Of a stretch of DNA of 10,580 nucleotides, positions 1-10,580 are shown in pieces (the stretch's first letter is position 1; each line of letters opens with the position of its first letter). The notes beneath the pieces were generated by a model. That model made no database searches and was not told the origin of the DNA. It saw nothing but the letters and a program-made list of their open reading frames with translations. The stretch is from the IMG/VR virus record IMGVR_UViG_2602041863_000006; one strand, 5' to 3'. A program made the translations under genes and the position numbers. This DNA comes from a virus (Duplodnaviria > Heunggongvirae > Uroviricota > Caudoviricetes).

Positions 1-207
1 AGTTCCATTCCCCACCACCGTGCCACTTGATGCACCATCAAGCCAGTCGAAATTCATACCTCCACTGTTTGGTCTCCTTAATGGAACGGTATGTGTATGT
101 GCGCCAGCACTATTTGCAGTACCAGATACATTGTGGGTATCGCCATCATCGGTATCGGTGATGTCGTCCTCTGCGGGTCCGGGTTCAGTTCTGGCAACCA
201 TACTCAT
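1..207 (-). CDS. Hypothetical protein, N-terminal 69 codons only (gene runs off the left edge); Gly/Ser/Thr-rich with an AGAHTHT motif reminiscent of phage tail-fibre repeats
   Basis: ATG at 207..205 (minus) preceded by GGAG with an 8-nt spacer; the frame stays open to position 1; an in-frame stop lies upstream at 265-267. Translation: MSMVARTEPGPAEDDITDTDDGDTHNVSGTANSAGAHTHTVPLRRPNSGGMNFDWLDGASSGTVVGNGT. It does not resemble a P2 major capsid protein (gpN), which would be expected after O. Confidence 0.4.
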   Translation of the reverse strand, partial: MSMVARTEPGPAEDDITDTDDGDTHNVSGTANSAGAHTHTVPLRRPNSGGMNFDWLDGASSGTVVGNGT

Positions 208-302
208 GGGGTTCACTCCTGAAAAAAATCGGGCGGTGGGTGCGCGGTGTAAACGGTCACGGAGTCAAACCGGAACACCGCGCACGCCGCCCGCTGACGG
301 GG

Positions 303-890
303 TCAGTCGTTAATCCCCATTACGCGGTTAAACCACTGGGTGCCTTCTTCCTGGCGTTGTTCTGCCATTTCGATGATTTCAGACTCGATGGCTTCGGAAA
401 TGAGCGGTGCTTCACCCTGGACACTGTTGAACGTCATCACCGCCTGACGCTGCTGTGCCGTGAATTTCAGGCGCTCAGTGCCCAGGCTTGCCGGGGTGTC
501 GGTCATCGCCAGCCCGACCAGATAGGCGCGCCCGTTAACGGAGAACTGCGGGTGCAGTTCGATACTGGAATAGATTTTCTTGCCGTCCGCGACAAGCTGC
601 TTCATGCGCTCGGTCGGTTCGATTTCTGCATACAGCGCAGTACGTCCGGCCAGCGGACCTTCCGTAATGTCTTCCGTACTCAGTGCGGTGACATCGCCCA
701 TTGCGGAAAATTCGCTTGACGGGCATGGCGAGAGATAGTGCTCAACGTTCACGCGGGCAGCGTAAACATCCGGGTTGAAGTTCTCGGCGGCTTCACGCAG
801 ATGCACCGGACTGATTTCACGGCCATCAACAGTTGATCCGGAGACAGCCACGCGAAACTTTTTGCGGGATGTCTTTTTTTCATTAGCCAT
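303..890 (-). CDS. O: Capsid scaffolding protein, P2 gpO-like, apparently shortened (~195 aa versus ~284 aa in P2)
   Basis: ORF 303..923 (-). The N-terminal two-thirds (KKFRVAVSGSTVDGREIS...VEHY...YLVGLAMTDTPASLGTE) matches my recollection of P2 gpO. Preferred start is the ATG at 890..888, which has a GAGGGG Shine-Dalgarno 8 nt upstream; the ATG at 923 has none. The C-terminal tail is unlike gpO. Confidence 0.7.
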   Translation of the reverse strand: MANEKKTSRKKFRVAVSGSTVDGREISPVHLREAAENFNPDVYAARVNVEHYLSPCPSSEFSAMGDVTALSTEDITEGPLAGRTALYAEIEPTERMKQLVADGKKIYSSIELHPQFSVNGRAYLVGLAMTDTPASLGTERLKFTAQQRQAVMTFNSVQGEAPLISEAIESEIIEMAEQRQEEGTQWFNRVMGIND

Positions 891-923
891 AGTTTTTGCC
901 CCTCTGACTGGTTCTTCAGTCAT

Positions 924-1044
924 GATGGCAAAGCGTAACAGGCTGATACAAAGGGCTTTTGTTGTAAGAAAACGGCCAGAACAGGGGGTTAAGGAGAACG
1001 GTTTCGCGCGCGGGTAATCTTCCTGTAATTACTCAGGGGGAGCA
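924..1044. promoter_or_regulatory. Divergent intergenic region between O(-) and P(+); expected site of divergent late promoters
   Basis: 121 bp non-coding spacer between two divergently oriented start codons. In P2 this interval holds the Ogr-activated late promoters PO and PP. A canonical TGT-N12-ACA dyad was not found at correct spacing (closest is TGT-N15-ACA at 963-983). Confidence 0.4.
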
Positions 1045-2796
1045 ATGATTCAGGACGCTTTTGTGCGCCAGCGTGCGCGGCAACTTTACTGGCAGGGTTA
1101 TCCGCCCGCAGAAATATCACGTCTGATGGGAATAAACCCGAACACGATTTATGCGTGGAAAAAACGCGACCAGTGGGATGAAACGCCACCCGTGCAGCGT
1201 GTCACGCAGTCCATCGATGCGCGCCTCATCCAGCTTACTGAAAAACAGAATAAAACAGGTGGTGACTTTAAGGAAATAGACCTGCTGACCCGGCAGCTTA
1301 AAAAACTGCATGATGGCCAGCCGGATGCGACGGCCACAGGAAAGAAAGGCCGGGCGAAAAAACTTAAAAATCATTTCACGCCGGAGCAGATTGCCGCACT
1401 GCGGGAAAAAATCATCAGCAGGCTGGAGTGGCATCAGCGGGGCTGGTTTGACTCCCTGAGCCTTTGCAGGGAAGCCGGGATACGTAACAGGATGATCCTG
1501 AAATCCCGACAGATTGGGGCGACCTGGTATTTTGCACAGGAAGCACTGCTGATGGCGCTGCGTGACGATGTGGCACAACCTTACCAGCGTAACCAGATTT
1601 TTTTGTCTGCGTCGCGTCGTCAGGCGTTCCAGTTTAAAAGCATTATTCAGAAGGCCGCGGCTGAAGTTGATGTGGAGCTGAAAGGGGGCGATAAAATCAT
1701 CCTCTCCAACGGCGCAGAACTGCATTTTCTCGGTACTTCTGCTGCGACGGCACAGTCCTACACAGGCAATTTTTATTTTGATGAATTTTTCTGGGTCAGT
1801 CGCTTTGCTGAACTGCGCAAGGTGGCTGGCGCTATGGCAACCCTCAGCGGGCTGCGACGCACCTACTTCTCCACGCCATCCACCGAAACGCACGAGGCAT
1901 ACGTCTACTGGAACGGCGACCGCTGGAACGAGAAAAAGGCCGCGCATAAACGCCAGCGTTTTTCTGTGGACTGGAAAACGCTGCATAACGGGCTTATCTG
2001 CCCCGACCGGACGTGGCGGCAAATTGTCACGCTGGAAGATGTGGTTAATCACGGCTGGAAACACACCGATATTGACGAAATTCGTGATGAAAACACCGAA
2101 GACGAGTTCCGCAATCTCTATATGTGTGAGTTTGTCCGCGAAGGGGAATCGGCATTTAACCTGAATATCCTGATTGGCTGCGGTGTTGACGGATACGACG
2201 ACTGGAAAGACTGGAAACCTTTTGCTCCCCGCCCGATGGGGAATCGTCCGGTATGGATTGGGTATGACGCAAACGGCAGCAGTGGAAACGGCGACAGCGG
2301 CGCTGTGTCCGTGGTGGTTCCTCCGGCTGTTCCTGGTGGCCGTTTTCGAACGGTGGAGACGCGACGCGTTCAGGGGCTGGAGTTTGAAGAACAGGCCAGA
2401 GTCATTGAAGAGTTCACGTGTCGCTACAACGTGGAACACATCGGCATTGATGCGACTGGCGGGCACGGGGATGCCGTTTATCAGATAGTGAAACGGTTTT
2501 TCCCTGCTGCTATTCCGTACACCTTCACGCTGTCATCAAAACGGTCGCTGGTACTGAAAATGCTGCAAATAATGCGTGCCGGGCGGTGGGAATACGATCG
2601 CGCCGAACGCGAGCTGGTCGCGGCCTTTAACGCCGTGCGTAAGGTGAAAACACCGGGCGGCTTTATCACTTACGAAACGGACCGCGCGAGGGGGATCAGC
2701 CATGGCGACCTTGCGTGGGCAACCATGCTTGCTGTCATTAATGAACCGATTGGCGGCGAAGGAGAAAACGAGCGTTTCACGGTTATGGAGTTCTGA
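1045..2796 (+). CDS. P: Terminase ATPase (large) subunit, P2 gpP-like
   Basis: 583-aa ORF with a G-rich Shine-Dalgarno (AGGGGGAG, 1035-1042). N-terminal HTH-like segment (YPPAEISRLMGINPNTIYAWKKR) typical of gpP-family terminases. Size matches P2 gpP (~590 aa). The stop overlaps the downstream portal start (ATGA at 2794-2798). Confidence 0.85.
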   Translation: MIQDAFVRQRARQLYWQGYPPAEISRLMGINPNTIYAWKKRDQWDETPPVQRVTQSIDARLIQLTEKQNKTGGDFKEIDLLTRQLKKLHDGQPDATATGKKGRAKKLKNHFTPEQIAALREKIISRLEWHQRGWFDSLSLCREAGIRNRMILKSRQIGATWYFAQEALLMALRDDVAQPYQRNQIFLSASRRQAFQFKSIIQKAAAEVDVELKGGDKIILSNGAELHFLGTSAATAQSYTGNFYFDEFFWVSRFAELRKVAGAMATLSGLRRTYFSTPSTETHEAYVYWNGDRWNEKKAAHKRQRFSVDWKTLHNGLICPDRTWRQIVTLEDVVNHGWKHTDIDEIRDENTEDEFRNLYMCEFVREGESAFNLNILIGCGVDGYDDWKDWKPFAPRPMGNRPVWIGYDANGSSGNGDSGAVSVVVPPAVPGGRFRTVETRRVQGLEFEEQARVIEEFTCRYNVEHIGIDATGGHGDAVYQIVKRFFPAAIPYTFTLSSKRSLVLKMLQIMRAGRWEYDRAERELVAAFNAVRKVKTPGGFITYETDRARGISHGDLAWATMLAVINEPIGGEGENERFTVMEF

Positions 2797-3842
2797 TGAG
2801 CAGAAAAAATAAAAAAGTGCGCATGAGTTCACGCATTGATCTCGCTGATGCGCTCAGGAAAGAATCATCGCTCAGTGCATTCACATTTGATGGTCCTTAT
2901 CGCCTGACCGGGCATGACCTGCTGGACAATATGTACTGTGCTGATAACGGGCGGTGGTATGAAACCCCGGTGGACTGGTACGGTCTGGCAAGAGCTGCCC
3001 GGCAAACGTCCTGGCATCAGTCTGCGCTTTACTTTAAGCGCAATGTATTGCTCGGCTGCTATATTCCGCACCCGCTGCTTTCCCGGCAGGATTTCTCGGC
3101 GCTGGCGCTGGACTGGTTTGTGTTCGGTAACGCATTCCTTGAGCTTCGGAGCAATATGCTCGGCGAACCGCTTAAATTACGGCACGCCCTGGCGAAATAC
3201 ATGCGACGCGGAAGCGATCTTGAATCATGGTGGTATGTGCAGGATGGCAAGGATGCGTTTCAGTTTCGTCCTGGCAAAGTGTGCCACCTGATGAATCCGG
3301 ACATTAACCAGGAAATCTACGGCATGCCGGAATATCTTGGCGCATTACTCTCGGCCAGCCTGTCTCATTCGGCGGACATGTTCAGAAAACTGTACTACGA
3401 CAATGGATCCCACGCCGGGTGCATCATCTACATCGGTGCAGCGCAGGTAAACCGCGAAAGCATGGACTCCCTGAAGGAAACGCTACAGGGTGCGCGTGGT
3501 GGTGGTGCATTTAAAAACGTGCTCATTCACGCGCCCAACGGGGGCAAAGAAGGTGTGCAAATTTTGCCGTTCCAGCAGATCACCGCAAAGGATGAGTTCA
3601 TGAATGTTAAGGCGGCATCCCGTGATGATGTGCTGGCTGCGCACCGCGTTCCGCCGCAACTGATGGGGGCGATGCCGGGCGAAAAAAGTGCGTTTGGTGA
3701 TGTGGAGAAGGCAGCGCGGGTTTACGCAATTAACGAGCTGATGCCCGTAATGGAGGCCATGAAGCATATCAATGACTGGCTTGGCGAAGAGGTGATCCGC
3801 TTTAACCCTTACGCACTGCTGGACACTCAGCCCACATCCTGA
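2796..3842 (+). CDS. Q: Portal protein, P2 gpQ-like
   Basis: 348-aa ORF, translationally coupled to P (ATGA overlap), GGAG at 2787-2790. Size and position downstream of P match P2 gpQ (~344 aa). Confidence 0.85.
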   Translation: MSRKNKKVRMSSRIDLADALRKESSLSAFTFDGPYRLTGHDLLDNMYCADNGRWYETPVDWYGLARAARQTSWHQSALYFKRNVLLGCYIPHPLLSRQDFSALALDWFVFGNAFLELRSNMLGEPLKLRHALAKYMRRGSDLESWWYVQDGKDAFQFRPGKVCHLMNPDINQEIYGMPEYLGALLSASLSHSADMFRKLYYDNGSHAGCIIYIGAAQVNRESMDSLKETLQGARGGGAFKNVLIHAPNGGKEGVQILPFQQITAKDEFMNVKAASRDDVLAAHRVPPQLMGAMPGEKSAFGDVEKAARVYAINELMPVMEAMKHINDWLGEEVIRFNPYALLDTQPTS

Positions 3843-3868
3843 CGCGCTTCGCTTGTCTGCTGCTTCGC

Positions 3869-3893
3869 CGGGGCATAAAAAATTTATGCCCCG
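3869..3893. other. Perfect inverted repeat (11-bp arms, 3-nt loop) 27 bp downstream of the portal stop; possible terminator or protein-binding palindrome
   Basis: CGGGGCATAAA-aaa-TTTATGCCCCG. No U-tract follows on either strand, so it is not a classic intrinsic terminator. Confidence 0.35.
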
Positions 3894-4316
3894 ACTCTCC
3901 AGCTCCTGTATCAATCAGATAATTTCACGACATCTTCCAGCTTATCGCCATCATCGACGATCAGGCTCTTACGCAATCCCACCGCGTTGACTGCATGTTC
4001 TTGCCGCCTCAGTGCGATTTTGACGGCCTTATCTGTCACCCCATCAAATCAAAAGCCCTCACGTCTTTTTCACGCTCAGTGTGAGAAATACAGCCATTCT
4101 GTTGTGTCGCTGCGACATCGTTCAGGGAATGCTATTTACCCCCTGAAACGCGGGCTGTTCCCCCGTCACCTGCGCGCAGAAAAAGTGCGTTTTTTTGTGC
4201 ACGCACGGATCCTTGACGGATCCAGCCGCCACGCGGGCCGGAAGGGCAAAAAGTCGTTCAAAATAATTGTGCAAATTTGTGCACTATCGTGCATGTAAAT
4301 TCATAAAAAAATTACA

Positions 4317-4339
4317 GAAAAAAGGCCGCTTTCGCGGCC
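4317..4339 (-). terminator. Rho-independent terminator for the ATPase-peptidase operon
   Basis: GGCCGC-tttc-GCGGCC hairpin (4324-4339) followed on the minus strand by a run of 7 T (complement of 4317-4323). It lies 8 bp past the peptidase stop (4347-4349). Confidence 0.6.
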
Positions 4340-4346
4340 ATAAAAA

Positions 4347-6551
4347 TTACGTGTCGAGAGAAATTTGTGTGCGCAGTTGAATAGGATTCAGAATTGTATA
4401 TCGCTGGCGAATAACATTATATAAATCAAAGTCTTTTACCCTTACGCTTATTACCATCGCATATTGCATATCAGGGGCTGAAACTCCCTTAACATGGCGC
4501 GAAGAATCTCGGGCATGATACCGTATATCAAAAACTGGATCGCTTAATAATGTATCAGCACTGAACTTTTTGCTTCTGTGCAAACAAGTTTCCCACTTAT
4601 GACCTTCACTCCTACACTCCCTTTCAGTCTTATACTGGCTTTTTTGACCAAAGAAATCATCTGTATCGGTATCGTCAAGGCCGAATCTTGGGCGGAAAGT
4701 TACCTGCATACCGGCCCTTGTATAGTTTACTGAATGTTCAGGATCTACTGGGGTTTGAATGCATAAAGTAGCGGTAAGCTCAAATGCTTCGTCAAAGGGA
4801 ACATCAGGGAATGGGATCGGTGCCCTTAAATATTTATTTTTTGCTAATGAACCATAGTAAATTACTGTAGCAGTATCATTTGGACAATCGATTAAAACGT
4901 TAGGATCCTCACTAAACCGTCCCCAACCGATATGTTCACGCGAATATTTTCTTGATGTTTCAGCATGATGAACAAGCAACGCTTTCAATGCAATGGTGTT
5001 CAATGGAGTTCCTGATAGAGCCGCAACTCCAGCGGCCGTTCTCAATGCTAATGGAGAGGCATAACTGGTTCCTTGAACTCCAACTATAGAACCAAGCAAA
5101 GGGTTGTAAGTGTAAAAAGGCTCGTCGTCGCTTCCACCAAAAATAACACCATCAGGTTTAACGAATCCGGGGCTTCTGCCTGGGCCAATACAGCTATATG
5201 GTGCCCGCCCCCATTTTTCACCGCTACGATCAGCAGCACCAATCGCTAGCGCGTTTACCATATCGGAAGGAGGTTGTATTCTCGCTGCATCACCGTCCTC
5301 ATTGCCATCATTCCCAACAGCAACAGTAAGTAATATCCCATGCTTAGCACAGATTTGGTCTAAAACAGCAGTCCATACATGAACCTCATCATCACCAATT
5401 GGAAGATGAGGACCAATACTTAGATTAGCGAACTTATAGTCACCACTATCAAGAACGGACTGTATTTTCTTAAGGACATCAAATAAATCCCAATTGCCAT
5501 TGTCACCTGATGTCGGTGAAAGAACTCTATAATGATCTACATTCATAAACGGTCTTTTAAAAGAAGGTGCATTTTCCTCGACACGTCCGAATAAGAAAGT
5601 GGATGTTACTTCATTACCGTGCTGCAATAATAATCCGCTTGTTTCTTTGGTGTCTGGATACACGTATTCCGTAACCCAATTACTCAAGTCAGCTGTCCCC
5701 AAGCCACCATCAAAAATGGCAATACGTTCGGATTCAAGAACAGCTTTAGAATTAGGGAGCTCCGGTGTAACTATATTAGATAACTTTCTGACAATGTTCG
5801 GCTGAGTACACCTGAGAGACGGCATCGGCCGCACAACGCGGATTAATGAAAAATCGAGTGTTTTTTTCATATCTTCAGGTCGCGCGTGTGCAACGATGAA
5901 AGTCAGTCCACCAACTTGGATTCTACTTTTGTAATCAACAGAGACACCATATTGTGCCGCATAGCTAATATAGGCTTTAACGATATCATCGTCTTCAACC
6001 CCAGCATGAAGAACCACTTCAAATTTTATCAAATCACTTTTCGCATGCTCAAAATTGCGTGCTCTCTCTTTTCCTTCAAAAAAGCTAACACTTTCAATTT
6101 CGATCAAATCCTTTTGTACGCCCTTCGGAGCTGTAGGGGAATTTAAAATTTCCTTAAATCTTATAACGGCATCATCATCACCGCTAACAAACAGTTGCGC
6201 CGTTACTAAGTCCTTATTCTGATCGCACTGACGTGCCGCTTTCCGTGGGCGAATGATTACCTGACGGCTACCGACATCCCGTAAACCTGTCGCTCTAAGT
6301 AATCCTTCCGGAAAGTAGCTTTTACCCAAAAACGCTGGGTGTAAAGTTAAATTGAATACACTCTCCCCCCTTGGCTTAGCCGCATCATCCAAACTGCGAA
6401 AGCGTGAGAGTAAAGTATCAATCTCTGGGTTTAAATGCTCCCTTACTTCTTCAAGAGTATAGGGATAGCGCTTACCATCCCTTCCTTTAGGCAAAGGTTC
6501 CTTTTTTGTCAGAACATGACCGTTACCTAAAAGTAAGTTCCTTTCCATCAT
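4347..6551 (-). CDS. ietS: Subtilisin-like (S8) serine peptidase, 734 aa, with a ~270-aa N-terminal region and ~200-aa C-terminal region of unknown function; candidate effector of an IetAS-like defence pair
   Basis: Catalytic triad motifs in subtilase order and spacing: Asp in IAIFDGGLG (D281), His in LLQHGNEVTS (H311), oxyanion Asn in AVGNDGN (N414), Ser in GTSYASPLAL (S496, codon complement of 5064-5066). The start ATG overlaps the upstream ATPase stop (ATGATG, 6546-6551) with GGGGG 8 nt upstream. AT-rich codon usage unlike the flanking phage genes. Gene symbol is from recall of the Gao et al. 2020 system and is unverified. Confidence 0.85.
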   Translation of the reverse strand: MMERNLLLGNGHVLTKKEPLPKGRDGKRYPYTLEEVREHLNPEIDTLLSRFRSLDDAAKPRGESVFNLTLHPAFLGKSYFPEGLLRATGLRDVGSRQVIIRPRKAARQCDQNKDLVTAQLFVSGDDDAVIRFKEILNSPTAPKGVQKDLIEIESVSFFEGKERARNFEHAKSDLIKFEVVLHAGVEDDDIVKAYISYAAQYGVSVDYKSRIQVGGLTFIVAHARPEDMKKTLDFSLIRVVRPMPSLRCTQPNIVRKLSNIVTPELPNSKAVLESERIAIFDGGLGTADLSNWVTEYVYPDTKETSGLLLQHGNEVTSTFLFGRVEENAPSFKRPFMNVDHYRVLSPTSGDNGNWDLFDVLKKIQSVLDSGDYKFANLSIGPHLPIGDDEVHVWTAVLDQICAKHGILLTVAVGNDGNEDGDAARIQPPSDMVNALAIGAADRSGEKWGRAPYSCIGPGRSPGFVKPDGVIFGGSDDEPFYTYNPLLGSIVGVQGTSYASPLALRTAAGVAALSGTPLNTIALKALLVHHAETSRKYSREHIGWGRFSEDPNVLIDCPNDTATVIYYGSLAKNKYLRAPIPFPDVPFDEAFELTATLCIQTPVDPEHSVNYTRAGMQVTFRPRFGLDDTDTDDFFGQKSQYKTERECRSEGHKWETCLHRSKKFSADTLLSDPVFDIRYHARDSSRHVKGVSAPDMQYAMVISVRVKDFDLYNVIRQRYTILNPIQLRTQISLDT

Positions 6552-7630
6552 TTAATCCCCCACTTTTGTAATTTATTCGCGATTGTTGGATGTGAAACAC
6601 CAACTAATTCAGCTATCTTCCTATTTGAAAAACCGTCAAAATGATATTTAATTATATTGAGATCATTATCGCTAAATTCATCCAATGAAACCCTCTCCGT
6701 AATTACGGCTTCTATTAATGAGCTTTCAAATGGAATATTTCTAAGTACCTCATTCTTTTTGGAGAAATTCAAAATACGGTTAATGATGGCAAAGGACATG
6801 CCATCTAATAATGGTGCAAGTTTTTTAGATAGTTCAGGTTCAATATTATGATTGACTAAATATCTATCTATCAGTTCTACTGATGGCATATTAAATTTAA
6901 GGATGTGCTCAAATCGACGCCAAACAGCCGGATCTAAGATATCAGGGTGATTAGTCGCAGCAACAAGAAGCGAGGTCGCTGGCCACTCATCTATGGTCTG
7001 TAGGAGTACAGTAACTAAACGTTTTAATTCTCCAACGTCCCTGTCATCATCACGTCTTTTTGCAACAGCATCAAATTCATCAAGCAAAAGGACACATGGT
7101 TTCTCTTTGGCATAATCCATAACGGATTTAATATTATTACCTGTTTTTCCCAAAAGAGAACTCATTACAGATGAGAGATCCAATGTTAAAAGAGGTAAAT
7201 TTAACTTTGCAGCAAGCCAATGTGCGGACATTGTTTTGCCTACGCCTGGCGGGCCAGAAAGTAAAACCGTCTTCACAGGTTCAAGACCAGCTTTGAACAA
7301 AGAAACAGCATTCTCTCTTTCGTTAACAATTGACTCCAGCTTCTTTGAGATATCCGTATTCCATACAGGTTCTTCAACAATTGCGTTGACAGATGTTTCC
7401 TGCAAAAGGTTTCGTCTGGAGTCTCCATCCACAGGCATAGGAGCCTTACTAGATGCCCCACGTAATACTGTTCCCTCAGCAATTAACGAAGCCAGCTTAG
7501 AAGCTAAAGCCTCATCATTTTTACGGATGTTGTTAATCATCTTTCTGCATAGGAGTGTAAATGCATTTGCGTTGCCTTTGATGCCTTGCTCGATGAGTTT
7601 GAAAAGTTCATCCTCCCTCACGTTTACCAT
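6548..7630 (-). CDS. ietA: AAA+ ATPase (classical AAA clade) with C-terminal helix-turn-helix; candidate ATPase partner of an IetAS-like defence pair
   Basis: Walker A GPPGVGKT (complement of 7232-7255), Walker B VLLLDEFD, sensor and Arg-rich segment (ATNHPDILDPAVWRRFE), C-terminal HTH-like NRKIAELVGVSHPTIANKLQK. Preferred start is the ATG at 7630 (MVNVRE...), which has GGGGG upstream; the ORF-track start at 7675 has no Shine-Dalgarno. Gene symbol is from recall and is unverified. Confidence 0.85.
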   Translation of the reverse strand: MVNVREDELFKLIEQGIKGNANAFTLLCRKMINNIRKNDEALASKLASLIAEGTVLRGASSKAPMPVDGDSRRNLLQETSVNAIVEEPVWNTDISKKLESIVNERENAVSLFKAGLEPVKTVLLSGPPGVGKTMSAHWLAAKLNLPLLTLDLSSVMSSLLGKTGNNIKSVMDYAKEKPCVLLLDEFDAVAKRRDDDRDVGELKRLVTVLLQTIDEWPATSLLVAATNHPDILDPAVWRRFEHILKFNMPSVELIDRYLVNHNIEPELSKKLAPLLDGMSFAIINRILNFSKKNEVLRNIPFESSLIEAVITERVSLDEFSDNDLNIIKYHFDGFSNRKIAELVGVSHPTIANKLQKWGIK

Positions 7631-7934
7631 AAAACCCCCAATAAAACATAAGCTTGTGTAAGCTGGTAACTGCATTGATGAAAATCAGTGCCTAATGTTA
7701 CCACTCTTGCTGGCGTTATTCAAAGAGTATCCTCACTTTTTTACTGTATGGATAATCAGCATAAAATCTATCCAGTTGGGTTACTCGAACATATTGTCAA
7801 TACTTGTTTCCAACGATTGATCAGTTCTACAGTTTTATCTCCTTCACTTGTGTTGGCAGCATGCTTATTCCTGAACCAGCTCGATTACTTGGCCATTTGA
7901 GAAAGATGTGTAGATCTTCTGATGGTTTGTATTG

Positions 7935-7965
7935 GAACGGGGTGCATAGTGATTTGCACCCCGTT
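7935..7965. other. GC-rich inverted repeat between parR and the AT-rich island; possible bidirectional terminator or boundary element
   Basis: AACGGGGTGCA-tagtgattt-TGCACCCCGTT, followed on the + strand by TCTTTATGTT. A second short palindrome CAGGGCG-aata-CGCCCTG at 7988-8005 sits just past the parR stop. Confidence 0.35.
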
Positions 7966-8008
7966 CTTTATGTTATGGGATTGGTGGCAGGGCGAATACG
8001 CCCTGATG

Positions 8009-8320
8009 TTATTCAGGAAATAACGCCCGGATATTTCCGGCCATCTGACTGGTTATCTGTGCGGTTGGTACTGGCTGTGACTCGGGGCGTTCTGTCCTGG
8101 TTTGTGTCACTGATAACGTCTCATCGTCAGCCCATGCAGCCAGTCGGTAAGCCTCTGCCGGATTCATTTTCAGAAGTGCCAGCCCGGCCAGAAAAGCCAC
8201 GCGTTGGCCGCTTTTGCGGGCTTCTGGTGTAAGGCTGTCCAGCCATGTGCATGCTTCGCCTTCGTTCTTGACGGCGGCGGGCTTCAGATAGAAACTTATC
8301 CGTCTGGTTGGTGTCGTCAT
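8009..8320 (-). CDS. parR: ParR-like small centromere-binding protein (103 aa)
   Basis: ATG at 8320..8318 preceded by AAGGAG; starts 4 nt after the parM stop, as in plasmid R1 parM-parR. Weak similarity to R1 ParR in the N-terminal part (RRISFYLKP...GLALL). The ORF-track start at 8455 overlaps parM and is rejected. Confidence 0.6.
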   Translation of the reverse strand: MTTPTRRISFYLKPAAVKNEGEACTWLDSLTPEARKSGQRVAFLAGLALLKMNPAEAYRLAAWADDETLSVTQTRTERPESQPVPTAQITSQMAGNIRALFPE

Positions 8321-8324
8321 TGGT

Positions 8325-9284
8325 TTACTCCTTGTCCATTGCGTACAGCCCATTAACCAGAGCAAACTGTGGCACTCCGTCCGCGATGAAAGTCGCATTA
8401 ACTCCGCAGGCTTCGCGGATAGCGGGTGCCACAATCTCCGCCCCTCCACCGACAACCATCACCCGCCCGTAACCCGAAAAAACCGCCAGCGCGCGGATCA
8501 CGCGTTGTTTCAGTGTTTCTTCCTTTTCACGAATAACCGCCATCAGGCTGTTGTAATGCGCGTCATTGTGGATGTGCCGGCGCAGCCAGGCTTCATCATG
8601 GCGATGTTCGATAATGGTATTGGCGATGTGGTGACTGGTACGCATACCGTTAGTGGCCATCACCGACAGTACGGCATCGGCCATCAGGGAAACGCCTACG
8701 TGTGGATCGCAAAACACCTGGCTGATACCTGCCAGTTGTCCCTGAACCTTTGCCACATCCAGCGTGGTTCCTCCTAAATCCACAATCAGCAGGGATTCAA
8801 ACGGACTCATGTCAGCCAGTGCTTTAAAGCCAGCCGGAATGGATTCAGGCATAACCCGCACGTTACGGATAGTGAATGCCTCACCGTTCTGGTACTCCAC
8901 CGGGCGCATAACGTTCGCTTTTTTGCGGTTGATGTTGGCCATGTCCGGCTGTGCGTTTGTGTCGAAATATTCGCTCAGTGGCAGGGTGACAACCACATCC
9001 ACCTCCTGTGGTGTGATGCCTGATTTGACCAGCGCGTGGTGAATGGCGATTACATTCACATCGCTGTACTGGTATTGCGTGTCGGTTGTCTGGACAAAGC
9101 GATCGCTGACCGGATCAAAACCATAGCGCACGCCATCAAGCATGTAGTTCGCAGGCTGCGAGCCGCCGAACGGCGCAGACCATTCCGACTTGAAGCTGTT
9201 CGGGCTGATGGCGTTGCGGCGTTCGCCGTTCTCAGTCCATGCCAGCTTGATGTTGGTGGAGCCGTCGTCGATACAAATTTTCAT
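8325..9284 (-). CDS. parM: ParM/StbA-like actin-type plasmid segregation ATPase (319 aa)
   Basis: N-terminus MKICIDDGSTNIKLAW...ISPNSFKSEW...YQYSDVNVIAIHHAL closely resembles plasmid R1 ParM (from recall). Size matches R1 ParM (~320 aa). AGGAAA Shine-Dalgarno 6 nt upstream of the ATG. Confidence 0.85.
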   Translation of the reverse strand: MKICIDDGSTNIKLAWTENGERRNAISPNSFKSEWSAPFGGSQPANYMLDGVRYGFDPVSDRFVQTTDTQYQYSDVNVIAIHHALVKSGITPQEVDVVVTLPLSEYFDTNAQPDMANINRKKANVMRPVEYQNGEAFTIRNVRVMPESIPAGFKALADMSPFESLLIVDLGGTTLDVAKVQGQLAGISQVFCDPHVGVSLMADAVLSVMATNGMRTSHHIANTIIEHRHDEAWLRRHIHNDAHYNSLMAVIREKEETLKQRVIRALAVFSGYGRVMVVGGGAEIVAPAIREACGVNATFIADGVPQFALVNGLYAMDKE

Positions 9285-9310
9285 GTCGATTTTCCTTATG
9301 TTGATTAATT

Positions 9311-9430
9311 AATCGTTTACGGGATTTTTAAATCCCGTTTTTGCCTGTTTTATGCTTGCTTCATATATCGCGGCGCGTTTTTTGCTCATTTACGGGTTTT
9401 GTGAATCCCGTTTCTGTCTGTTTTTTGTTT
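9311..9430. repeat. parC-like centromere and promoter region: two ~36-bp direct repeats 73 bp apart, each containing an ACGGG...CCCGT inverted repeat
   Basis: Repeat 1 TTTACGGGATTTTTAAATCCCGTTTTTGCCTGTTTT (around 9316-9351); repeat 2 TTTACGGGTTTTGTGAATCCCGTTTCTGTCTGTTTT (around 9388-9424). The perfect palindrome ACGGGATTT-tt-AAATCCCGT at 9319-9338 overlaps a plausible minus-strand promoter for parM (-35 TTTAAA, -10 TAATTA). Repeat 2 lies inside the 3' end of the upstream ORF. Confidence 0.5.
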
Positions 9431-10580
9431 CCACTGGTCAGGCCACCCCGCAGCAGGTCTGCTTTGCGGCGGGCGCGTTCAGTGGTTTCACTGATTCTCT
9501 GTGCGTGCTCTGCGTCGCGGATGGCGCGCAGCATGTCAGAAAGCACTGTAACGGGTGTTTTCATGGTGTTCTGGTCCTGCTGAAGTGTGGATGCCAGGCG
9601 TGCGGCGGCTTCGGGGTCTGATGTCCCGAGCTGTGCCAGATAGCTGGCGACCGGGTTATGGCGGATCTCCGTGCTGCTTACGCCGTGATTACGGCTCAAG
9701 TGCTGCCAGAGCTGCGTGATTCGGCTGTCCGGGCGGGTATCCGGTTTGCGTACAATTTCAAATCCCTGCGGTGCAATGATGCTGCCGTCGACGTACAGAC
9801 TGCCGCCCCGTAACAGGTGCTGCATCTGCTGTTCACCGATATGCAGGCCAAGGGATTCAGCAGACTCCCGCCATTCTTTAGCGAGTAACTCGTGGTTATC
9901 AGGCAAAGGCCGCGGCTGTTTGCGGCTCTGCGTCCAGTTCTGCATTTCATCACTGCTGTTTTTGGCCTGTTTGTCACGCAGCGAACGCATCAGCGCCCGG
10001 CGTTCGTGCCGTTTCAGTGAGCGCATCCATTCGTTCACTTCAACGCCGTCAGGGAGCTGCGGCCACGGTGTTGTCCGTTCTTCCGGCTGTTCTGTCCCGT
10101 TGTTGTCTGTTTCCTGTACACGGGGACAGTTATTGCCACGAGTCCAAGGGGCGGCAGGGCCGCCCTGAAGGTCAAAACCATTTTCGCGGGCGCTGTCTTC
10201 CGCTTCCTGTTTTCGTCTTACCAGCTTCCAGTTATCCGGATTCGTGCACACACGGGAGGATTCCCCGATGAGTGGCGACCAGATCCCGTAAATCTGTACG
10301 CCCTGTTCGCCGTAATCGTTCAGCTCATCTGCGAGGTCGTAGGCGGTGCGAATCAGGTAGTCTTTGCGTGGAACAAGTACGCCGCCCTGTTTCTCTATGT
10401 AGGTGGCAAAACATCCGGCATCAGCGGCAGCAAGAACCGCATCCATTGCGTCATCCTTCAGCCGTTGCGGGCCTTCGGGGTTGCGTGCCATCTGGCTGGC
10501 AAGGCGACGCAGTTCACGCCACACCTGACGGGAGGGGATACCAAAGAACTGGAACTGGCGGACCCGGTGAAGGCGCGCCC
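9361..10580 (-). CDS. Hypothetical protein, C-terminal ~406 codons (the 5' end is beyond the right window edge)
   Basis: The minus-strand frame is open from 10580 to the stop at 9361-9363; the ORF-track start at 10524 is an internal GTG. Contains a hydrophilic low-complexity linker (QEAEDSARENGFDLQGGPAAPWTRGNNCPRVQETDNNGTEQPEERTTPW). No motif I can name; function not assigned. Confidence 0.5.
   Translation of the reverse strand, partial: ARLHRVRQFQFFGIPSRQVWRELRRLASQMARNPEGPQRLKDDAMDAVLAAADAGCFATYIEKQGGVLVPRKDYLIRTAYDLADELNDYGEQGVQIYGIWSPLIGESSRVCTNPDNWKLVRRKQEAEDSARENGFDLQGGPAAPWTRGNNCPRVQETDNNGTEQPEERTTPWPQLPDGVEVNEWMRSLKRHERRALMRSLRDKQAKNSSDEMQNWTQSRKQPRPLPDNHELLAKEWRESAESLGLHIGEQQMQHLLRGGSLYVDGSIIAPQGFEIVRKPDTRPDSRITQLWQHLSRNHGVSSTEIRHNPVASYLAQLGTSDPEAAARLASTLQQDQNTMKTPVTVLSDMLRAIRDAEHAQRISETTERARRKADLLRGGLTSGNKKQTETGFTKPVNEQKTRRDI

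What the first reader, a model, noticed from the sequence alone, without database searches (positions are those of the whole stretch)
4347..7675. AAA+ ATPase plus S8 subtilase two-gene operon in the P2 old/tin hotspot position: candidate IetAS-like anti-phage defence system
Two minus-strand genes are translationally coupled: the ATPase stop TGA overlaps the peptidase ATG. One is a classical AAA+ ATPase (Walker A GPPGVGKT, Walker B LLLDEFD); the other a 734-aa subtilisin-like peptidase with a complete Asp/His/Asn/Ser catalytic set. They sit just past the portal gene and cos-proximal spacer, where P2 carries old/tin and where P2-like phages are known to swap defence cargo. The ATPase+subtilase pairing matches what I recall as the IetAS system of Gao et al. 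2020. The block is strongly AT-rich relative to the phage genes, consistent with horizontal acquisition.
Basis: partly seen in the sequence, partly recalled or inferred. Interest (0 to 1): 0.85.

Follow-up and report, generated by a model that had tools for sequence, protein, structure and literature searches.

The report
Known IetAS defence cassette in prophage
The two genes are a real AAA+ ATPase plus subtilisin-like protease pair of the IetAS anti-phage/toxin-antitoxin family, sitting in the variable cargo slot of a P2-family prophage of E. coli, but this same system at this same locus was already catalogued in 2022, so the finding is correct and ordinary.

Summary
Two overlapping minus-strand genes (ATGA overlap at 6548-6551) encode a classical-clade AAA+ ATPase and a 734-aa S8 peptidase. 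They match PADLOC IetA (2.9e-89) and IetS (5.7e-41). The D281/H311/N414/S496 catalytic set is invariant in 44 homologues. The pair lies in an AT-rich block (41% GC against 54-56% in the flanks), at 4295-7987. This block replaces other cargo of phage P88 between the portal gene and the replication gene A, which is the P2 hotspot. The cassette has a conserved promoter-like block, its own Shine-Dalgarno sequences and a clean terminator. It is not new: Rousset et al. 2022 list this system as P2-hotspot system 7 (listed count 400), labelled "ietAS (Gao et al, 2020)", with one visible residue difference per protein. It is present in 32 of 5426 complete E. coli genomes, in Enterobacter phage phiT5282H, and in a lambda-like Plesiomonas prophage. 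Two corrections: ietA most likely starts at ATG 7630 (360 aa), not 7675, and the prophage in the window is defective. The mechanism is inferred from homologues: a cytoplasmic protease toxin restrained by the ATPase and released on infection. This allele has not been tested, to my knowledge.

The parts
4295..7987 (.). AT-rich cargo block (41% GC) that differs from phage P88. The sub-block 4295-7891 is shared at 95.8% nucleotide identity with Enterobacter phage phiT5282H.
   Evidence: blastn of the window against P88 and phiT5282H; phage search; GC content
7695..7723 (-). Candidate sigma-70 promoter of the operon: -35 TTGAAT (7723-7718), 17-nt spacer, TGg extended -10 plus TAACAT (7703-7695).
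   Evidence: My reading of the sequence. The block is conserved in phiT5282H and in the diverged Plesiomonas copy. The strict consensus scan did not list it, so it is inferred.
7631..7694 (-). Probable 5' leader, with an imperfect palindrome at 7646-7659 and a Shine-Dalgarno GGGGG at 7639-7635.
   Evidence: The palindrome arms change symmetrically in phiT5282H (AGCTT/AAGCT to AACTT/AAGTT). Function untested.
6548..7630 (-). ietA: a 360-aa AAA+ ATPase. It has an N-terminal three-helix bundle (6-52), a disordered linker (53-70), an AAA+ module (about 76-313; Walker A K132, Walker B D184/E185, sensor-1 N227, R238/R239) and a C-terminal helix-turn-helix (321-356). RefSeq and the ORF listing use the upstream ATG at 7675 (375 aa).
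   Evidence: PADLOC IetA 2.9e-89; Pfam AAA and HTH_50; closest solved relatives p97/Cdc48, PAN and FtsH; AF2 model with pLDDT 78; start codon; residue conservation
4347..6551 (-). ietS: a 734-aa cytoplasmic subtilisin-like (S8) peptidase. It has N-terminal alpha/beta domains including a propeptide-like fold (about 33-247), a catalytic domain (about 272-545; D281, H311, N414, S496) and a C-terminal beta-sandwich (about 556-720).
4318..4339 (-). Intrinsic terminator of the operon: GGCCGCGAAAGCGGCC followed by TTTTTT, 8 nt after the ietS stop.
   Evidence: sequence
2796..3842 (+). Portal gene (gpQ homologue), the left anchor of the hotspot.
   Evidence: Pfam Phage_portal; P88 annotation
8009..9284 (-). 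Right-hand neighbours: Plasmid_stab_B (8009-8320) and ParM/StbA (8325-9284), followed by replication gene A (from 9361). These are phage backbone, also present in P88.

Best explanation
This is an IetAS-family two-gene cassette carried as cargo in the gpA-portal hotspot of a P88-like (P2-family, Peduoviridae) prophage of E. coli.

Shown here:
- ietA and ietS form one compact unit. It has a conserved promoter-like block, overlapping stop and start codons, a Shine-Dalgarno sequence before each gene and one terminator.
- IetA has every motif of an active classical-clade AAA+ ATPase, plus a conserved C-terminal helix-turn-helix.
- IetS is a cytoplasmic subtilase with an intact catalytic set. It also has a propeptide-like N-terminal region and a C-terminal beta-sandwich.

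Inferred from tested homologues (pTiC58 IetAS, SGI1 SgiAT, B. cereus IetAS, E. coli ietHAS):
- IetS is a toxic protease.
- IetA, using ATP, keeps it harmless in uninfected cells.
- A phage protein or replication-linked signal disturbs that restraint.
- IetS then cleaves cellular or phage proteins, and the infected cell stops supporting phage growth (abortive infection).

This protects the lysogen population, and so the prophage, from competing phages. The IetA HTH probably autoregulates the operon, as type II antitoxins do. That last step is my speculation.
For: Family assignment:
- PADLOC IetA 2.9e-89 over 22-371 of the 375-aa form, and IetS 5.7e-41 over 22-707.
- The best NCBIfam hits are the IteA/IteS anti-phage models, aligned over most of their length for IetS and nearly all for IetA.
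- IetA is 32% identical to the founder pTiC58 IetA, E 2e-45.
- Rousset et al. 2022 label the same proteins ietAS in their P2-hotspot table.

Unit structure.

Active enzymes:
- Invariant D281/H311/N414/S496.
- Invariant Walker A and B, sensor 1 and arginines.
- No signal peptide.
- Propeptide-like and beta-sandwich domains.

Mobility as cargo:
- Different cargo at the same place in P88.
- The same cassette at 95.8% nucleotide identity in a different Peduoviridae genus.
- 85% amino-acid identity in a lambda-like prophage.
- Present in 32 of 5426 complete E. coli genomes.

Function of homologues:
- Toxin/antitoxin roles: PMC13069673 citing Yamamoto 2009; PMC5006074.
- Abortive infection triggered by a phage gene: bioRxiv 10.1101/2022.08.27.505566.
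- Protease activity needed for defence, and ietA mutants not obtainable: PMC13069673.
Against: - No experiment on this allele was found.
- The ECOR52 ietAS tested by Wu et al. gave only limited protection alone. Its cloning primers do not match this window, so it was not amplified from this sequence.
- IetS is not detectably similar to pTiC58 IetS in a pairwise comparison (E 0.33). The toxin role is therefore transferred through family profiles and gene order, not close homology.
- Both proteins score far below the NCBIfam equivalog cut-offs (253 vs 510 bits; 115 vs 900 bits). The founder pTiC58 pair and the E24377A pair also fail them.
- The pore loop of this IetA clade lacks the usual aromatic residue (S-L-L-G). 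That weakens any model needing processive unfolding.
- Targets, trigger and the way IetA restrains IetS are unknown for the whole family (PMC13069673).
Confidence: 0.8

Rival explanations
1. The pair acts mainly as an addiction (post-segregational killing) module that stabilises the prophage or its remnant in the chromosome, as IetAS does for plasmid pTiC58 and SgiAT does for SGI1. Any anti-phage effect is secondary or absent.
For: - The family was first described as a plasmid-stability toxin-antitoxin system. SgiAT of SGI1 is a working TA pair in E. coli.
- The prophage here has lost capsid and small-terminase genes, yet the cassette is intact.
- It sits next to a ParM/StbB partition pair, another maintenance function.
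Against: - Homologues do protect against phage and respond to a phage gene.
- The slot is one where P2-like phages exchange defence cargo (PMC9122126, abstract; bioRxiv 10.64898/2026.02.27.708500).
- The two roles do not exclude each other.
- ParM/StbB belongs to the P88 backbone, not to the cassette.
Confidence: 0.15
2. A housekeeping or secreted protease with a dedicated AAA+ chaperone, unrelated to conflict between mobile elements.
Against: - No signal peptide or hydrophobic segment.
- Located in a prophage cargo slot and present in only 32 of 5426 complete E. coli genomes.
- Foreign base composition.
- Strong matches to defence-family profiles.
Confidence: 0.02
3. A phage morphogenesis or lytic-cycle function, for example a maturation protease with its ATPase, needed by this phage.
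For: The pair lies beside the head and packaging genes. In Plesiomonas it lies inside the lysis module.
Against: - Close relatives such as P88 lack it and carry other genes there.
- P2-family phages use gpO as the head protease (Pfam Phage_GPO).
- It is kept in a prophage that can no longer build capsids.
Confidence: 0.02

Closest known systems
ietAS as listed for the E. coli P2-like prophage hotspot (Rousset et al. 2022, Cell Host Microbe, PMC9122126, supplementary table mmc6, system 7)
   Same: The same two proteins: one visible residue differs in each (IetA I/V at 'LASL[IV]AEG'; IetS G/D at 'AAQY[GD]VS'; the printed IetS sequence is cut after about 400 residues). The locus between gpA and the portal gene is also the same, and the table holds the variant flanked by StbA and Plasmid_stab_B.
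   Different: Nothing of substance. That table starts IetA at MVNVRE (ATG 7630), which agrees with my start-codon analysis.
IetAS defence system of Gao et al. 2020 (PADLOC ietAS, DefenseFinder Gao_Iet, NCBIfam IteA/IteS)
   Same: AAA+ ATPase followed by an S8 peptidase in one operon. The window proteins align with the IteA model (367 positions) over nearly its whole length and with the IteS model (747 positions) over positions 22-653, and protein lengths are similar (360/734).
   Different: Sequence is diverged: 253 and 115 bits against equivalog cut-offs of 510 and 900. The Gao paper itself was not available to me, so which allele they tested is not known here.
IetA/IetS toxin-antitoxin of Agrobacterium plasmid pTiC58 (Yamamoto et al. 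2009), the founder of the family
   Same: Same gene order. IetA is 32% identical over 253 residues. Both peptidases hit PADLOC IetS profiles.
   Different: - pTiC58 IetA (328 aa) lacks the C-terminal HTH and has an aromatic pore loop (K-F-M-G, against S-L-L-G here).
- The IetS proteins are not alignable pairwise (E 0.33) and differ in length (836 vs 734 aa).
- Plasmid context rather than prophage context.
ietHAS (SNF2 helicase + IetA + IetS) of E. coli (PMC13069673); a locus with this SNF2-AAA-S8 gene order (identification mine) is in E24377A
   Same: Same species and the same ATPase plus S8 core. The protease is needed for defence and ietA behaves as an antitoxin.
   Different: That type has an added SNF2 helicase, adjacent methyltransferase and helicase genes, a 326-aa IetA without HTH and a 795-aa IetS. 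It lies in a chromosomal island, not a P2 hotspot.
old and tin of phage P2
   Same: Same cargo slot between gene A and the portal gene. Both are non-essential lysogenic-conversion genes that block other phages.
   Different: Unrelated proteins, and transcribed in the opposite direction relative to the portal gene.

Membership tests
IetAS (PADLOC ietAS / DefenseFinder Gao_Iet) | An IetA-type AAA+ ATPase matching the family profiles | tested here: met
   PADLOC PDLC02196 2.9e-89, 298 bits, model positions 5-370 of 374; three further IetA models at 2e-42 or better
IetAS (PADLOC ietAS / DefenseFinder Gao_Iet) | An IetS-type S8 peptidase matching the family profiles | tested here: met
   PADLOC PDLC02197 5.7e-41, model positions 24-718 of 749; five further IetS models; Pfam Peptidase_S8 4e-17
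IetAS (PADLOC ietAS / DefenseFinder Gao_Iet) | The two genes adjacent on the same strand, ATPase first | tested here: met
   ATGA overlap at 6548-6551; one terminator after ietS
IetAS (PADLOC ietAS / DefenseFinder Gao_Iet) | Intact catalytic residues (ATPase Walker A/B; protease Asp/His/Ser) | tested here: met
   K132, D184/E185, N227 and R238/R239 invariant; D281, H311, N414 and S496 invariant
IetAS (PADLOC ietAS / DefenseFinder Gao_Iet) | Protection against phage when expressed, dependent on the protease active site | not testable with these tools
   Shown for homologues only. No test of this allele was found.
NCBIfam equivalogs IteA_antiphage (NF042959) and IteS_antiphage (NF042956) | Score above the curated equivalog cut-off | tested here: not met
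   253 bits vs 510 and 115 bits vs 900. pTiC58 IetA, E24377A IetA and E24377A IetS also score below the cut-offs, and pTiC58 IetS gave no hit at the 1e-20 limit of that search. These models therefore define a narrow clade, not the family.
IetA/IetS toxin-antitoxin (pTiC58 type) | Recognisable homology to both founder proteins | tested here: inconclusive
   IetA yes (E 2e-45). IetS not pairwise (E 0.33), only through shared profile hits.
IetA/IetS toxin-antitoxin (pTiC58 type) | Protease toxic alone, neutralised by the ATPase | not testable with these tools
   Reported for pTiC58, SGI1 SgiAT and ietHAS
P2-family defence hotspot cargo | Located between replication gene A and the portal gene, with variable content among related phages | tested here: met
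   Window against P88: backbone identical on both sides, 4295-7987 replaced. P2 carries old and tin there. Listed in the hotspot table of PMC9122126.

The most novel reading that the evidence does not exclude
The IetA clade found here has a conserved C-terminal HTH and a non-aromatic pore loop. It may be both the sensor and the switch of the system. The HTH would bind the operon leader in uninfected cells, and possibly phage DNA or a replication intermediate during infection. The AAA+ ring would then act on the propeptide-like N-terminal region of IetS, so that a cytoplasmic subtilase is held as, or released from, a zymogen-like state. That would be an ATP-driven zymogen switch in bacterial immunity. 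My evidence only shows that the pieces exist (HTH, palindrome in the leader, propeptide-like fold). It does not show that they work this way.
Probability: 0.12. Interest if true: 0.55.

Novelty: already known. Interest (0 to 1): 0.15.

Why it matters
It matters little as a discovery. The system, its family name and its place in the P2 hotspot are already in the literature and in the standard defence-finder profiles. Two things have some value.

First, the biochemical mechanism of IetAS is still unknown for every member: the targets of the protease, how the ATPase restrains it, and what the trigger does. This E. coli allele is compact, has its own promoter and terminator, is present in well-studied strains such as E2348/69, and would be convenient to work on.

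Second, the anatomy worked out here gives concrete handles for that work: the corrected start codon, the conserved promoter block, the HTH, the unusual pore loop, and the propeptide-like and beta-sandwich domains of IetS.

Tried and rejected
- **Upstream ATG at 7675 as the ietA start.** Rejected: not conserved in phiT5282H or Plesiomonas, and it has no Shine-Dalgarno sequence.
- **NCBIfam equivalog cut-offs as a membership test.** Rejected as too narrow: the founder pTiC58 pair and the E24377A pair do not reach them either.
- **Whether the ECOR52 ietAS tested by Wu et al. is this allele.** Its primers do not match the window or any fetched locus, so this stays unresolved.
- **Locating cos through the P2 19-mer and the P2 cos region.** No match.
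- **Rfam scan of the window.** Nothing found.
- **Strict sigma-70 scan.** It found no minus-strand promoter upstream of ietA, and its total count equalled that of shuffled sequence. The promoter I propose comes from conservation instead.
- **Operator-like repeats upstream.** Only a short palindrome at 7646-7659 was found.
- **Gao et al. 2020 and Yamamoto et al. 2009.** Neither could be read. What I say about them comes from papers that cite them.
- **Solved structure of an IetA or IetS.** None found by sequence.
Full report
**1. The observation**

The window holds two minus-strand ORFs, 6548-7675 (375 aa as listed) and 4347-6551 (734 aa). Read on the minus strand, the junction is GGGGATTAAATGATGG. 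The ietS ATG (6551-6549) overlaps the ietA TGA (6550-6548), with a G-rich Shine-Dalgarno sequence just upstream.

- Walker A GPPGVGKT with K147.
- Walker B LLLDEFD.
- GTS496.

Pfam gives AAA (1e-30) plus a weak C-terminal HTH_50 for the first protein and Peptidase_S8 (4e-17) for the second. In an alignment of 44 homologues at 41-85% identity, D281, H311, N414 and S496 are invariant. In the ATPase, the Walker A lysine, the Walker B DE, sensor-1 N227 and R238/R239 are invariant.

GC content is 0.41 in the block 4295-7987, against 0.54 and 0.56 in the flanks.

**2. The surroundings**

The window is a piece of a P88-like prophage (Xuanwuvirus, Peduoviridae) of E. coli. The gene order is:
- a truncated gpO scaffold/protease gene (303-923, minus strand);
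- large terminase (1045-2796);
- portal (2796-3842);
- the cassette;
- a Plasmid_stab_B gene (8009-8320);
- ParM (8325-9284);
- the C-terminal part of replication gene A (from 9361).

Compared with P88, the backbone is 96.7-98.3% identical over 311-4294 and 7988-10580. The block 4295-7987 replaces 744 bp of unrelated P88 cargo.

P2 itself carries orf91, tin and old at the same place between gene A and the portal gene. ietAS is transcribed towards the portal gene, the opposite of old-tin.

I could not locate cos. The P2 19-mer and the P2 cos region do not match the window.

**3. Anatomy of the unit**

A clean intrinsic terminator (GGCCGCGAAAGCGGCC followed by T6) lies 8 nt after the ietS stop.

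I aligned the upstream region with two other copies of the cassette: Enterobacter phage phiT5282H, and a Plesiomonas prophage whose DNA is much more diverged. Two things follow:
- The ATG at 7675 is not conserved, whereas TTGGGGGTTTTATGGTAAA, containing the ATG at 7630, is.
- A block further upstream is conserved. I read it as TTGAAT - 17 nt - TGgTAACAT, an extended -10 promoter at 7723-7695.

Homologues are about 358-366 aa, and the family profiles begin at the position matching ATG 7630. I therefore place the ietA start at 7630 (360 aa). The promoter is an inference: the strict consensus scan did not report it.

A short palindrome at 7646-7659 lies in the presumed leader. Its arms change symmetrically in phiT5282H.

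**4. The proteins**

*IetA.* It belongs to the classical AAA+ clade. Its best solved relatives are p97/Cdc48, PAN and FtsH. The AF2 model (pLDDT 78) shows:
- an N-terminal three-helix bundle;
- a disordered linker;
- the AAA+ module;
- a C-terminal helix-turn-helix, whose recognition-helix residues (S-H-P-T) are invariant in this clade.

At the pore-loop position the clade has S-L-L-G. The founder pTiC58 IetA has K-F-M-G there.

*IetS.* It has no signal peptide or hydrophobic segment. Its AF2 model (pLDDT 83.5, pTM 0.87) matches subtilases best when they still carry their propeptides:

**5. Family membership**

PADLOC gives IetA 2.9e-89 and IetS 5.7e-41, both nearly full length. The best NCBIfam hits are the IteA and IteS anti-phage equivalogs, but far below their cut-offs (253 vs 510 bits; 115 vs 900 bits).

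That failure says little. pTiC58 IetA and both E24377A proteins also score below those cut-offs, and pTiC58 IetS gave no hit at the 1e-20 limit of that search.

Against the founder pair I fetched from pTiC58:
- IetA is 32% identical (E 2e-45).
- IetS is not alignable pairwise (E 0.33), although both peptidases hit IetS profiles.

The family is therefore held together by the ATPase, the gene order and profile-level similarity of very diverged peptidases. The window's pair belongs to the subfamily with an HTH-bearing IetA of about 360 aa and an IetS of about 734 aa. That subfamily is widespread in Proteobacteria.

**6. What is known**

Rousset et al. [quoted passage not shown] The printed sequences differ from the window's proteins at one visible residue each (the IetS sequence is cut after about 400 residues). 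[quoted passage not shown]

Wu et al. note that ietAS in E. coli can sit in prophages.

On function:
- The family was first described as a plasmid-stability toxin-antitoxin pair, with the protease as toxin and the ATPase as antitoxin (PMC13069673 citing Yamamoto 2009).
- SgiAT of SGI1 behaves the same way in E. coli (PMC5006074).
- B. cereus IetAS acts by abortive infection and is set off by expression of a phage gene.
- In the E. coli ietHAS variant, protease activity is needed for defence and ietA mutants could not be built.

**7. Most likely mechanism**

Shown here:
- a self-contained operon;
- an ATPase with all catalytic motifs;
- a cytoplasmic subtilase with an intact active site and extra N- and C-terminal domains;
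- a location in an exchangeable cargo slot;
- recent transfer between phage genera.

The transfer evidence is 95.8% nucleotide identity over 4149-7891 with phiT5282H, while the rest of that phage is not detectably similar by megablast.

Inferred from homologues:
- IetS is toxic when free.
- IetA restrains it at the cost of ATP.
- Infection breaks the restraint.
- Proteolysis aborts the infection.

Speculative:
- The HTH autoregulates the operon through the leader palindrome.
- The propeptide-like region of IetS is the handle on which IetA acts.

The main rival is a pure addiction role. It fits the family's history and the intact cassette in a decayed prophage, but it does not exclude defence.

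**8. Distribution**

The cassette is in 32 of 5426 complete E. coli genomes, always chromosomal, including EPEC E2348/69. It is also in phage phiT5282H. At 85% protein identity it sits inside the lysis module of a lambda-like prophage on a Plesiomonas plasmid. PHROGs holds both proteins as families of unknown function.

**9. Verdict**

The finding is a rediscovery of a catalogued system in its catalogued place, so novelty is 'already known' and interest is low. What remains open is the biochemical mechanism of the family as a whole, and whether this specific allele protects against any phage.

Noticed in passing
window 1-923: The prophage is defective. Relative to P88, 2174 bp are missing at about 311-313: the small terminase gpM, the major capsid gpN and the last ~85 codons of gpO. 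Pfam covers only positions 2-183 of the 268-position GPO model. In addition, window 1-140 is a fragment of the tail-fibre gene, joined through a 9-bp overlap (132-140) to the end of the head-completion gene. Relative to strain 2014EL-1346-6 this implies a further ~6.2-kb loss of baseplate and lysis genes. No complete E. coli genome in the collection has that second junction.
   Followed up: partly
window 8009-9284: A type II plasmid-partition pair, ParM/StbA (319 aa) and Plasmid_stab_B (103 aa), lies between replication gene A and the hotspot. It is part of the P88 backbone. This is odd for an integrating phage and may point to a plasmid-like stage or to stabilisation of the excised form.
   Followed up: partly
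window 7892-7987: A 96-bp stretch absent from both P88 and phiT5282H. It contains a perfect 12-bp-stem hairpin (7935-7946 / 7955-7966), followed by T-rich sequence only on the plus strand. A second hairpin lies at 7988-8005, just after the Plasmid_stab_B stop. These are possibly terminators that insulate the cassette from the gene A operon.
   Followed up: no
L009 2787-6205 (Plesiomonas shigelloides plasmid pPS-MS-17-188-1): The same ietAS subtype (IetS 85% identical) is inserted between the endolysin and a DUF2514 gene of a lambda-like prophage, upstream of its terminase genes. The cassette therefore moves between unrelated temperate-phage types and uses different cargo slots.
   Followed up: partly
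L008 4030-14793 (E. coli E24377A chromosome): A second, unrelated-in-DNA ietAS type in E. coli. It has an SNF2 helicase, a 326-aa IetA without HTH, a 795-aa IetS, a DNA methyltransferase and a DEAD/DEAH helicase in a row. Its SNF2-AAA-S8 gene order matches the ietHAS described in PMC13069673 (identification mine) and fits the RM III co-localisation noted by Wu et al..
   Followed up: partly
window 7150-7160 (IetA residues 157-161, 360-aa numbering): At the pore-loop-1 position this IetA clade has S-S-L-L-G: L159 in 39 of 44 sequences and F in 5, with L160 and G161 invariant. The usual motif is aromatic-hydrophobic-Gly, and pTiC58 IetA has K-F-M-G. This resembles the non-translocating D1 ring of p97 (from my own knowledge) and may mean the ATPase remodels rather than threads its partner.
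   Followed up: partly
window 3870-3892: A GGGGCATAAA...TTTATGCCCC hairpin lies 28 nt after the portal stop, in the position of the tQ terminator annotated in P2. A small conserved ORF on the minus strand (about 3911-4039) is annotated as hypothetical in P88 and in RefSeq E. coli.
   Followed up: no
L004 523-6603 (Agrobacterium tumefaciens pAtG3_79a): A homologous ietAS pair (IetS 37% identical, same HTH-type IetA profile) sits next to a caspase-family protease gene and a DUF3223 gene, beside a Tn3 transposase. This may be a small defence cluster.
   Followed up: no
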